A stretch of 18,900 nucleotides of DNA from a virus. Positions within the stretch are counted from its first letter, which is position 1. The number at the start of each line of letters is the position of its first letter. Both the position numbers and the translations under genes were made by a program. The notes under the pieces were generated by a model. It did no database searches. It was not told the origin of the DNA and saw only the letters and a program-made list of their open reading frames with translations. This document shows, in pieces, positions 17,002 through 17,361 of this stretch. The DNA lies in the UHGV virus genome UHGV-1695514. One strand, given 5' to 3'.

Positions 17002-17361
17002 TTAGGCACTTAATCTAGTCGTTGCGCGTATGCATAAATATACAAGGAATAACGGTACAGAAAGCGGCATGCAAAATAACCACAAAATAATGAACATGCC
17101 ATACACACCGCTATTCACGCCAATGTGACGATCCCAAAAGGGTTTGGTCATTATCTTAAGGGCTAGTTTCTCCGAAGTATAATATGAGAATGGGTACAGG
17201 ATGGCGCTTAAAACAAGATATGTAACCACAAATGGCATATAAGGAGCATAGGCAGGAAAAATGAGTCCGTCATTCATATCGCGCACTATAAAGTAGATCA
17301 GATAGCCATAACCACACCATCCCCATAAGCAGTGCCGTAAATAATATTTTAAGGTCATCAT
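17002..17361 (-). CDS. colicin E1-type (pore-forming colicin) immunity-like inner-membrane protein
   Basis: Only convincing minus-strand gene. 119 aa with three hydrophobic segments. N-terminal MMTLKYYLRHCLWG...YLIYFIV...DG...F and mid-protein YPFSYYTSE match the pattern I recall for the ColE1 immunity protein (MSLRYYIKNILFG...IYIYLI...EG...F...CPYSKYAIE). AAGGA RBS 7 nt upstream on the minus strand. AT-rich gene. Confidence 0.5.
   Translation of the reverse strand: MMTLKYYLRHCLWGWCGYGYLIYFIVRDMNDGLIFPAYAPYMPFVVTYLVLSAILYPFSYYTSEKLALKIMTKPFWDRHIGVNSGVYGMFIILWLFCMPLSVPLFLVYLCIRATTRLSA

What the first reader, a model, noticed from the sequence alone, without database searches (positions are those of the whole stretch)
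17002..17361. Orphan colicin E1-type immunity-like gene, the only gene on the minus strand
A small three-helix membrane protein resembling pore-forming colicin immunity proteins sits alone on the opposite strand in an AT-rich stretch, with no colicin or lysis gene beside it. It could give the host resistance to a pore-forming colicin (a lysogenic-conversion trait), or be a remnant of a colicin operon.
Basis: partly seen in the sequence, partly recalled or inferred. Interest (0 to 1): 0.55.

Follow-up and report, generated by a model that had tools for sequence, protein, structure and literature searches.

The report
Orphan colicin-immunity gene on phage-plasmid
A Klebsiella phage-plasmid carries a small, self-contained gene for a membrane protein of the colicin E1/Ia immunity family without any toxin gene, most likely to shield its host from a pore-forming bacteriocin made by competitors; this is a recognisable, already auto-annotated kind of cargo whose target toxin is unknown.

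Summary
The ORF is real: 17002..17361 on the minus strand, 119 aa, with a more conserved start at 17358. [quoted passage not shown] It matches Pfam PF03526 above the curated cut-off and scores 99.4% by hhalign against ImmE1, Iia, Iib and Cki. It is 30% identical to authentic ColE1 immunity.

The window is an SSU5-like Klebsiella phage-plasmid. Relative to E. coli relatives, the gene lies on a roughly 660-bp AT-richer insertion between the YafO-toxin gene and the integrase gene. A conserved extended -10 promoter and a Shine-Dalgarno site travel with it.

No colicin pore domain or lysis gene occurs in the window, in a complete relative, or around about 45 clade members. All 32 copies examined are intact, with dN/dS of roughly 0.07-0.3. 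About 250 of 312 Klebsiella plasmids with this backbone carry the cassette; other genera almost never do.

My verdict is an orphan immunity "moron" kept by selection, not an operon remnant. The protective function and the target toxin are inferred, not shown. NCBI's PGAP annotation pipeline already names the gene, and orphan pore-former immunities on plasmids are documented. It is therefore a new member of a known kind, of modest interest.

The parts
17002..17361 (-). Coding sequence of the E1-type pore-forming-colicin immunity homologue. It encodes 119 aa from the first ATG. The second ATG at 17358 gives 118 aa (MTLKYY...) and is the start conserved in divergent copies.
   Evidence: - ORF list and translation.
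- Pfam PF03526 at 29.1 bits against a cut-off of 25.
- hhalign 99.4% against ImmE1, Iia, Iib and Cki.
- 32 intact copies with dN/dS of roughly 0.07-0.3.
- AF2 three-long-helix model.
17395..17403 (-). Candidate extended -10 promoter element, TGaTATGAT. There is no good -35. It sits about 35-40 nt upstream of the start codons.
   Evidence: The motif (T/G)TATGATA is conserved upstream of the gene in phage-plasmid, Salmonella and Raoultella contexts whose sequence further upstream is unrelated. The consensus scanner, which requires a -35, did not report it. It is inferred, not shown to be active.
17368..17374 (-). Shine-Dalgarno-like GAAGGAA, with its AGGA core 7 nt before the first ATG and 10 nt before the second.
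   Evidence: Read directly from the sequence. It is conserved as GAAGG(A/G)A in the phage-plasmid copies and as GAAGAGA in the Salmonella copy (L041); the more distant Raoultella-type copies (L009, L010) have GGCGG instead.
16920..17586 (.). The immunity cassette: a roughly 660-bp segment present in Klebsiella SSU5-like phage-plasmids. E. coli SSU5-like plasmids have a 62-bp spacer between the YafO gene and the integrase gene at this position.
   Evidence: Pairwise blastn of pGD31-F25 (L040) against pJN2-26 (L002). Homology stops 19 nt before the YafO stop and resumes at the 12-bp inverted repeat. GC is 41.7% against 49.9% for the window.
17587..17617 (.). Perfect 12-bp inverted repeat, ATGATTCCATAC-N7-GTATGGAATCAT. 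It is a backbone element that marks the upstream edge of the cassette and lies in front of the integrase promoter region.
   Evidence: the repeat finder. The same repeat is present in E. coli plasmids that lack the cassette. Its function is unknown.
16528..16938 (+). Context only: a YafO-family toxin gene, convergent with the immunity gene, with 63 bp between the two stop codons. It is not part of the cassette.
   Evidence: Pfam PF13957 at 85 bits. It is retained in E. coli relatives that lack the immunity gene.

Best explanation
The gene encodes a small inner-membrane protein with three transmembrane helices. It belongs to the E1-type family of immunity proteins for pore-forming colicins (ImmE1, Iia, Iib, Cki).

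It sits on a minimal self-contained cassette made of an extended -10 promoter, a ribosome-binding site and the ORF. In the Klebsiella lineage of SSU5-like phage-plasmids, this cassette was inserted between the YafO-toxin gene and the integrase gene.

The gene is most likely expressed from its own promoter while the element is carried as a plasmid prophage. The protein would then diffuse in the inner membrane. There it would bind the membrane-inserting helices of an incoming colicin-like pore-forming bacteriocin before the voltage-gated channel opens. Carriers would survive a competitor's toxin without paying for toxin production.

**Shown:** the homology, the architecture, the orphan status, the insertion, selection on the coding sequence, and the restriction to one host genus.

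**Inferred:** expression in the lysogen, membrane topology, the protective activity, and the identity of the toxin. The toxin is presumably a Klebsiella or Raoultella pore-former with an E1/Ia/K-type channel domain that has not been paired with this clade.
For: **Homology**
- Pfam PF03526 scores above the curated cut-off.
- 31 of 34 aligned relatives also hit PF03526.
- The profile-profile match to characterised immunities is 99.4%, E 2e-21, over 104 columns.
- Identity to ColE1 immunity taken from a ColE1 plasmid is 30% over 106 residues.
- Shared positions include the N-terminal (K/R)YY, WG, LYPF, E..AL, FW and FC...P.
- The nearest homologue outside the clade (P0021) lies opposite a gene with a colicin pore domain and next to a colicin lysis gene.

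**Architecture**
- Hydropathy and the AF2 model both give three long helices, as in Iia.

**Selection**
- All 32 copies are intact, with dN/dS of 0.07-0.3.

**Self-contained insertion**
- define the cassette and its conserved limits.

**Orphan status**
- Searches found no toxin or lysis gene.

**Distribution**
- The cassette is in 251 PLSDB plasmids, 250 of them Klebsiella. The backbone is in 518 plasmids, 312 of them Klebsiella.

**Precedent**
- Orphan immunity genes for pore-forming colicins are common on E. coli plasmids and have been interpreted as 'immunity gain' (PMC12546727).
- Klebsiella strains do deploy pore-forming klebicins and telocins (PMC6817936; PMC12042878).
Against: - No cognate toxin is known. 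In an exhaustive profile search of 1.84 billion representatives, everything within about 45-50% identity belongs to the same orphan-only clade. The next relatives are only about 25-30% identical.
- No member of the clade was found next to a colicin in about 45 loci.
- The best-studied Klebsiella pore-formers (KpneA, KaerA, klebicin E, TelA) use four-helix A-type immunities, not this type.
- The promoter is only a conserved sequence motif. No intrinsic terminator was detected.
- No expression or phenotype data were found in the literature searched.
Confidence: 0.6

Rival explanations
1. Co-opted membrane protein. The clade descends from colicin immunity proteins but now serves the phage in another way. 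Candidates are superinfection exclusion, protection against a non-colicin membrane-damaging agent (a CDI or T6SS ionophore, a tailocin, or a foreign holin), or modulation of the element's own lysis.
For: - The whole clade is orphan-only and sits on mobile or phage DNA: phage-plasmids, prophage ends next to tail-fibre and DinI genes (L033-L035, L046), and a prophage remnant at icd (L011-L014).
- One Salmonella copy lies 1.8 kb from a two-partner-secretion (TPS/ShlB) locus.
- No cognate colicin was found anywhere.
Against: - The family positions conserved across true immunities are all retained.
- The window already has its own lysis cassette at 2453-3890 on the other strand.
- There is no similarity to any known exclusion protein, and the defence-system library (PADLOC) was not searched.
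- The copy near the TPS locus is not in the cdiI position.
Confidence: 0.2
2. Decaying remnant of a colicin operon (toxin loss). The immunity gene is what is left after the colicin and lysis genes were deleted.
For: - In true operons the immunity gene is also on the strand opposite to, and tail-to-tail with, the toxin gene.
- Truncated colicin genes beside immunity genes do occur on E. coli plasmids.
Against: - There is no trace of a pore domain or lysis gene in six-frame HMM and tblastn searches of the window, a complete relative and all clade loci.
- Only 63 bp separate the gene from an intact, unrelated convergent gene.
- The unit conserved across unrelated contexts ends about 15 nt after the stop.
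- The gene is under purifying selection and is intact in all 32 copies.
Confidence: 0.05
3. Functionless hitch-hiker. It is a real gene by descent but is silent or useless in Klebsiella, and persists only because the phage-plasmid lineage that acquired it became common.
For: - The 250 Klebsiella copies are 90-100% identical and sit on one backbone lineage, so prevalence could partly reflect clonal spread.
- Expression is unproven.
Against: - Low dN/dS holds also between deeply diverged copies: about 0.09-0.19 at dS of 0.8 to above 2.
- The promoter motif is conserved in unrelated contexts.
- No frameshifted or truncated copy was found among 32 loci. This includes a record (pKP389-3) where most neighbouring genes are annotated as frameshifted.
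Confidence: 0.12

Closest known systems
Colicin E1 immunity protein (ImmE1/Cei, 113 aa) of ColE1 plasmids
   Same: - 30% identity over 106 residues (blastp E 1e-11).
- Similar length, and colinear from the N-terminal M(S/T)L(R/K)YY to the last helix.
- Same length of the loop between helices 1 and 2.
- Transcribed opposite to its neighbours.
   Different: - ImmE1 lies between cea and the lysis gene and overlaps the end of cea. This gene has neither partner.
- The sequence is too diverged to predict protection against colicin E1.
Colicin Ia and Ib immunity proteins (Iia 111 aa, Iib 115 aa) on IncI/IncF plasmids
   Same: - These are the best tblastn hits outside the clade, at 25-33% identity.
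- Same three hydrophobic or aromatic segments.
- Same conserved LYPF / E..AL / FW / P positions.
- Iia also occurs as an orphan or beside truncated colicin genes.
   Different: - Iia and Iib normally sit about 20 bp tail-to-tail with the colicin gene.
- They are carried by conjugative plasmids of E. coli and Salmonella, not by a phage-plasmid of Klebsiella.
Orphan pore-forming-colicin immunity genes of the E. coli plasmidome (Nat Commun 2025, PMC12546727)
   Same: An immunity gene is maintained without a toxin on plasmids whose relatives never carry the toxin. That study interpreted this as 'immunity gain' protecting against competitors.
   Different: - Those orphans were defined as more than 99% identical to immunities with a known cognate toxin. 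This clade has no known cognate at all.
- This gene sits on a temperate phage-plasmid of Klebsiella.
Telocin/ImmA cassettes of Klebsiella telomere (N15-like) phage-plasmids (Sci Adv 2025, PMC12042878)
   Same: A Klebsiella phage-plasmid carries a bacteriocin-warfare cassette that is expressed in the carrier state. ImmA is an inner-membrane immunity against a pore-former.
   Different: - Those elements carry toxin plus immunity, and ImmA has four helices (A-type).
- Here only a three-helix E1-type immunity is present, on an SSU5-like rather than an N15-like element.
Phage 'morons' (independently transcribed lysogenic-conversion genes inserted between backbone genes)
   Same: - It is an insertion between two conserved backbone genes.
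- It has lower GC than its flanks.
- It has its own promoter-like element.
- Its orientation is opposite to its neighbours.
   Different: No terminator was detected, and expression in the lysogen has not been shown.

Membership tests
[quoted passage not shown] | Sequence match to the family profile above the curated threshold | tested here: met
   - PF03526 at 29.1 bits against a gathering score of 25, E 9e-7.
- hhalign against ImmE1, Iia, Iib, Cki and P0021: 99.4%, E 2e-21, 104 columns.
- NCBIfam gave no hit, although PGAP names identical proteins 'colicin E1 family microcin immunity protein'.
[quoted passage not shown] | Small protein (about 95-115 aa) with three transmembrane helices (A-type immunities have four) | tested here: met
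   - 118/119 aa.
- Hydropathy gives two strong hydrophobic segments plus one aromatic-rich segment, as in Iia.
- The AF2 model has long helices at 3-30, 35-69 and 86-117 plus a short helix at 72-79.
- The class definition is quoted from PMC10906532.
- This is a prediction only. Topology was not measured.
[quoted passage not shown] | Gene adjacent to a pore-forming colicin gene and on the opposite strand (colicin - immunity - lysis) | tested here: not met
   No pore domain or lysis gene was found in the window, in the complete relative, or in about 45 clade loci. The control loci for ColE1, ColK, Col10, ColIa, ColIb and L037 were all detected. This defines the operon, not the protein family. 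The gene is therefore a family member by homology, but an orphan.
[quoted passage not shown] | Confers specific protection against a cognate pore-forming colicin | not testable with these tools
   This needs expression in a sensitive strain and bacteriocin spot or survival assays. No cognate toxin has been identified.
[quoted passage not shown] | Own promoter, independent of the SOS-controlled colicin promoter | tested here: inconclusive
   A conserved extended -10 (TGnTATGAT) lies at 17403-17395 in unrelated contexts. The consensus scan found no -35/-10 pair. No transcript data are available.
Phage moron / lysogenic-conversion cassette | Insertion between conserved backbone genes, absent from related phages | tested here: met
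   - E. coli SSU5-like plasmids have YafO followed by a 62-bp spacer and then the integrase region. Klebsiella relatives have a 663-bp segment with the gene at that position.
- Some Klebsiella relatives (phages GArcari-2022a and b) match only the intergenic repeat.
Phage moron / lysogenic-conversion cassette | Deviant base composition and autonomous transcription signals | tested here: met
   GC is 40-42% against 50% for the window. The promoter-like motif and the Shine-Dalgarno site travel with the ORF. No terminator was found.
Phage moron / lysogenic-conversion cassette | Expressed in the lysogen and changes the host phenotype | not testable with these tools
   No transcriptome, proteome or phenotype for this gene was found in the papers searched.
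Degenerate colicin operon | Recognisable fragments of colicin or lysis genes flanking the immunity gene | tested here: not met
   Six-frame HMM search (E up to 1-10) and tblastn found nothing. The flanks are an intact YafO gene 63 bp away and the integrase upstream region.

The most novel reading that the evidence does not exclude
This is the type member of an orphan-only, mobile-element-borne clade of E1-type immunity proteins. The clade is found on Klebsiella phage-plasmids, on enterobacterial prophage ends, in Raoultella chromosomes and on a Salmonella contig that also carries plasmid-type genes. It moves as a roughly 430-bp promoter-plus-ORF unit and has no sequenced cognate colicin. Either it neutralises an undiscovered Klebsiella pore-forming weapon, possibly one not organised as a colicin operon, or phages have repurposed the fold for a different membrane-protection or exclusion role.
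Probability: 0.15. Interest if true: 0.6.

Novelty: new member of a known kind. Interest (0 to 1): 0.3.

Why it matters
If the protein is active, most SSU5-like phage-plasmids of Klebsiella pneumoniae would make their hosts immune to some pore-forming bacteriocin. These are common elements in clinical isolates, and some carry KPC or other resistance genes.

That would give the element a selective benefit unrelated to antibiotics. It would also add phage-plasmids to the carriers of 'immunity gain'. It could limit klebicin-based therapeutics that use E1/Ia-type channel domains. Finding the target toxin would also reveal a Klebsiella weapon that is not yet paired with this immunity clade.

The concept itself is established, both for orphan immunity genes and for lysogenic conversion by morons. 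The automatic annotation already names the gene correctly.

Tried and rejected
- **NCBIfam scan of the protein:** no hit.
- **PDB sequence search with the family profile:** nothing.
- **Foldseek of the AF2 model:** searches against BFVD and PDB gave no match with E <= 0.001, and the AFDB library was unavailable. Structure adds only the helix count.
- **Consensus promoter/terminator scan:** it found no minus-strand promoter upstream and no terminator. The conserved extended -10 emerged only from aligning upstream regions.
- **Cognate toxin among the neighbours of diverged copies:** I checked a Raoultella 245-aa protein, the L010 115-aa and 61-aa proteins, the L043 184-aa protein and others. None has a Pfam family or a pore domain.
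- **KvarIa/KpneIa as a possible target:** these are Ia-like klebicins reported inactive on the K. pneumoniae strains tested. I could not retrieve their loci. A protein search with the ColIa channel domain returned no Klebsiella entry, and the plasmid tblastn was dominated by E. coli. None of the ten nearest non-clade clusters is from Klebsiella. Every non-clade relative is only about 23-35% identical. The link is therefore not supported.
- **CDI ionophore immunity:** nothing in the CDI-ionophore paper (PMC11630599) links this clade to CDI toxins, and the Salmonella copy near a TPS locus is not in the cdiI position.
- **Holin or antiholin:** rejected, because the homology to immunities is strong and the element has its own lysis cassette on the other strand.
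- **Not done:** the PADLOC library was not searched.

Full report
**1. The observation**

It lies in the lowest-GC part of the window. The ORF is 40% GC and the surrounding 16940-17586 segment is 41.7%, against 49.9% overall.

It is not a chance ORF.
- It matches Pfam PF03526 ('Colicin E1 (microcin) immunity protein') at 29.1 bits, above the curated cut-off of 25.
- It matches PHROG 22982, a family of unknown function, end to end at E 1e-79.
- All 32 homologous copies I collected from phage-plasmids, prophages and chromosomes are intact at 108-119 aa.
- Pairwise Nei-Gojobori dN/dS is 0.07-0.3 in nearly all comparisons, including deeply diverged pairs where dS is 0.8 to above 2.

In diverged copies the first of the two tandem ATGs is often not an ATG, so 17358 is the better-conserved start.

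**2. The genomic setting**

The window is part of an SSU5-like phage-plasmid of Klebsiella, about 110 kb long.
- The 16400-17687 stretch that includes the gene is 96-97% identical to phages pJN2-26, vB_Kpn_1825-KPC53 and vB_KpnS_p4727 and to E. coli plasmid pKP389-3.
- K. pneumoniae plasmid pARLG-4622-2 (CP139245.1) matches most of the window and carries an identical protein.

The window's gene order is tail fibre, lysis cassette, ParA/ParB, DnaB-type helicase, primase, tRNA-Asn and tRNA-Ser, PhoH, Gp49, GrxA, a 205-aa protein, and a YafO-family toxin. All of these are on the plus strand. The immunity-like gene follows on the minus strand.

Seven of the longer minus-strand ORFs (117-215 aa) have no PHROG family. 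Like the two further long ORFs that lie over the group II intron, they overlap plus-strand genes or tRNAs. 'The only gene on the minus strand' is therefore reasonable for this window.

**3. What the protein is**

Close relatives at 54-100% identity form a small clade in Klebsiella, Raoultella, Salmonella and uncultured prophages.

An exhaustive profile search of 1.84 billion representative proteins found only 38 hits at E <= 1e-3. Beyond the clade these are full-length proteins of about 100-136 aa, 23-35% identical. Of the 34 aligned proteins, 31 hit PF03526.

I fetched authentic references from annotated plasmids:
- ImmE1 from a ColE1 plasmid, sitting between cea and the lysis gene.
- Cki from a ColK plasmid.
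- Iia and Iib from ColIa and ColIb plasmids.

The clade profile aligns to these at 99.4% probability, E 2e-21, over 104 columns. The window protein is 30% identical to ImmE1 over 106 residues.

The positions shared across the family are all present: the N-terminal (K/R)YY, WG, LYPF, E..AL, FW, and FC...P in the last helix.

The nearest homologue outside the clade is P0021. It lies tail-to-tail with a gene carrying a colicin pore-forming domain (PF01024, 83 bits) and next to a colicin lysis gene. This anchors the wider family to true immunity function.

Hydropathy gives the same three-segment pattern as Iia. An AlphaFold2 model (mean pLDDT 84.7) has three long helices at 3-30, 35-69 and 86-117, plus a short helix over the FWDRH motif. 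This matches the three-helix 'E1 type' as opposed to the four-helix 'A type' (definition quoted in PMC10906532). No solved structure or informative fold match exists.

**4. It is an orphan, not an operon remnant**

I built an HMM from the channel domains of colicins E1, K, 10, Ia and Ib and the L037 colicin. It recovered all six control loci at E <= 1e-75. It found nothing at E <= 0.1 in six-frame translations of any of the following:
- the window;
- the complete 107.8-kb relative;
- any locus around clade members.

Colicin lysis proteins gave only noise. The annotation of the complete relative lists no colicin.

The stop codon is 63 bp from the stop of the intact, convergent YafO gene, so there is no room for a degraded toxin.

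Clade members in other contexts are also alone. These include the Raoultella chromosome, a prophage remnant at icd, prophage ends beside tail-fibre and DinI genes, and a Salmonella contig.

**5. Anatomy of the cassette**

E. coli SSU5-like plasmids keep the 205-aa gene and YafO but go straight on to the integrase gene.

Aligning pGD31-F25 with pJN2-26 shows that homology ends 19 nt before the YafO stop. It resumes at a perfect 12-bp inverted repeat, at window 17587-17617. In between, E. coli has 62 bp and Klebsiella has 663 bp containing the gene.

Across unrelated contexts, conservation extends only from about 55 nt upstream of the start to about 15 nt past the stop. The mobile unit is therefore about 430 bp.

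Within the conserved upstream stretch lie TGaTATGAT at 17403-17395, which is an extended -10, and GAAGGAA at 17374-17368, which is a Shine-Dalgarno site. The simple -35/-10 scanner did not report the promoter, and no terminator was found. Promoter activity is therefore inferred.

**6. Distribution**

- In PLSDB, the backbone segment 14377-16900 occurs in 518 plasmids: 312 Klebsiella, 88 Enterobacter, 46 Escherichia, 42 Salmonella and 22 Citrobacter.
- The cassette occurs in 251 plasmids, of which 250 are Klebsiella.
- Among 50,697 phage records, only the three Klebsiella phage-plasmids carry it.

It is therefore a lineage-specific accessory gene that is very common within one host genus.

**7. 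Mechanism and rivals**

The best-supported reading is an orphan immunity gene acquired as a moron. The protein sits in the inner membrane and intercepts the inserting helices of an incoming pore-forming bacteriocin before the channel opens. That mechanism is established for this family from general knowledge, and it is summarised in PMC10906532.

Orphan pore-former immunities maintained on plasmids have recently been described in E. coli and interpreted as 'immunity gain' (PMC12546727). Klebsiella strains do use pore-forming klebicins and telocins.

The weak point is that no cognate toxin is known. The whole clade is orphan-only, and the characterised Klebsiella pore-formers KpneA, KaerA, klebicin E and TelA use A-type immunities. 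The Ia-like KvarIa and KpneIa could not be linked to this clade.

I therefore keep a 0.2 rival that the clade has been co-opted for another membrane-protection or exclusion role. I give 0.12 to a neutral hitch-hiker and 0.05 to an operon remnant.

**8. Novelty**

PGAP already labels identical proteins 'colicin E1 family microcin immunity protein' in many records. The concepts of orphan immunity and lysogenic conversion are well known.

I found no paper that discusses this gene or colicin immunity on SSU5-like phage-plasmids.

It is a new member of a known kind. The family call and the lysogenic-conversion idea are supported by inference. The operon-remnant alternative is not supported. The specific list of colicins to test is not predicted by sequence.

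Noticed in passing
window 17688-18900 (runs off the end): A group II intron starts at 17688 (GTGCGCC...). Rfam RF02005 (D1-D4) matches 17721-1794 6 at 186.6 bits. The intron-encoded protein ORF starts at 18051 and runs off the window. The intron sits on the plus strand, 29 nt upstream of where the integrase start codon lies in relatives that lack it. Near-identical copies occur in other Klebsiella and E. coli phages and plasmids.
   Followed up: partly
window 15901-16938 (+): A YafO-family toxin (PF13957, 85 bits) is preceded by a 205-aa protein with no Pfam domain (PHROG 13546, unknown function) instead of a YafN-type antitoxin. The pair is conserved in E. coli and Klebsiella SSU5-like elements. 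The 205-aa protein may be an unrecognised antitoxin.
   Followed up: partly
window 17587-17617: A perfect 12-bp inverted repeat, ATGATTCCATAC-N7-GTATGGAATCAT, is conserved in both the E. coli and the Klebsiella backbones upstream of the integrase gene. It marks the edge of the cassette. It could be an operator or recombination site.
   Followed up: partly
window ~12595-12637: Relative to pARLG-4622-2, about 1.4 kb is missing, which removes most of the ATP-dependent DNA ligase gene. Only an 82-aa N-terminal ORF (12389-12637) remains.
   Followed up: partly
window 3866-5397: This segment has no megablast match to the otherwise collinear relative CP139245.1. It holds two ORFs (4165-4563 and 4564-5352) with no Pfam family, so it is a variable cargo region between the lysis cassette and parA.
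   Followed up: no
L037 (Logan SRR8732217 contig, 2.6 kb): A metagenomic contig carries a complete colicin-type module: a pore-domain gene cut by the contig end, a 136-aa immunity on the opposite strand with a lysine- and proline-rich tail, and a lysis gene. This immunity is the closest toxin-linked relative of the clade.
   Followed up: partly
L011-L014 (Raoultella chromosomes, next to icd): An intact 119-aa copy (85% identical) is annotated only as a 78-aa protein. It sits beside fragments of GrxA and PhoH genes, which looks like an SSU5-like remnant integrated next to icd.
   Followed up: partly
L041 (Salmonella enterica contig DAAWYJ010000042.1): A copy 86% identical lies 1.8 kb upstream of a two-partner-secretion locus (ShlB/POTRA transporter plus a 2355-aa TPS-domain protein). 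It is probably coincidental, but it is the only clade member seen near another toxin-delivery system.
   Followed up: no
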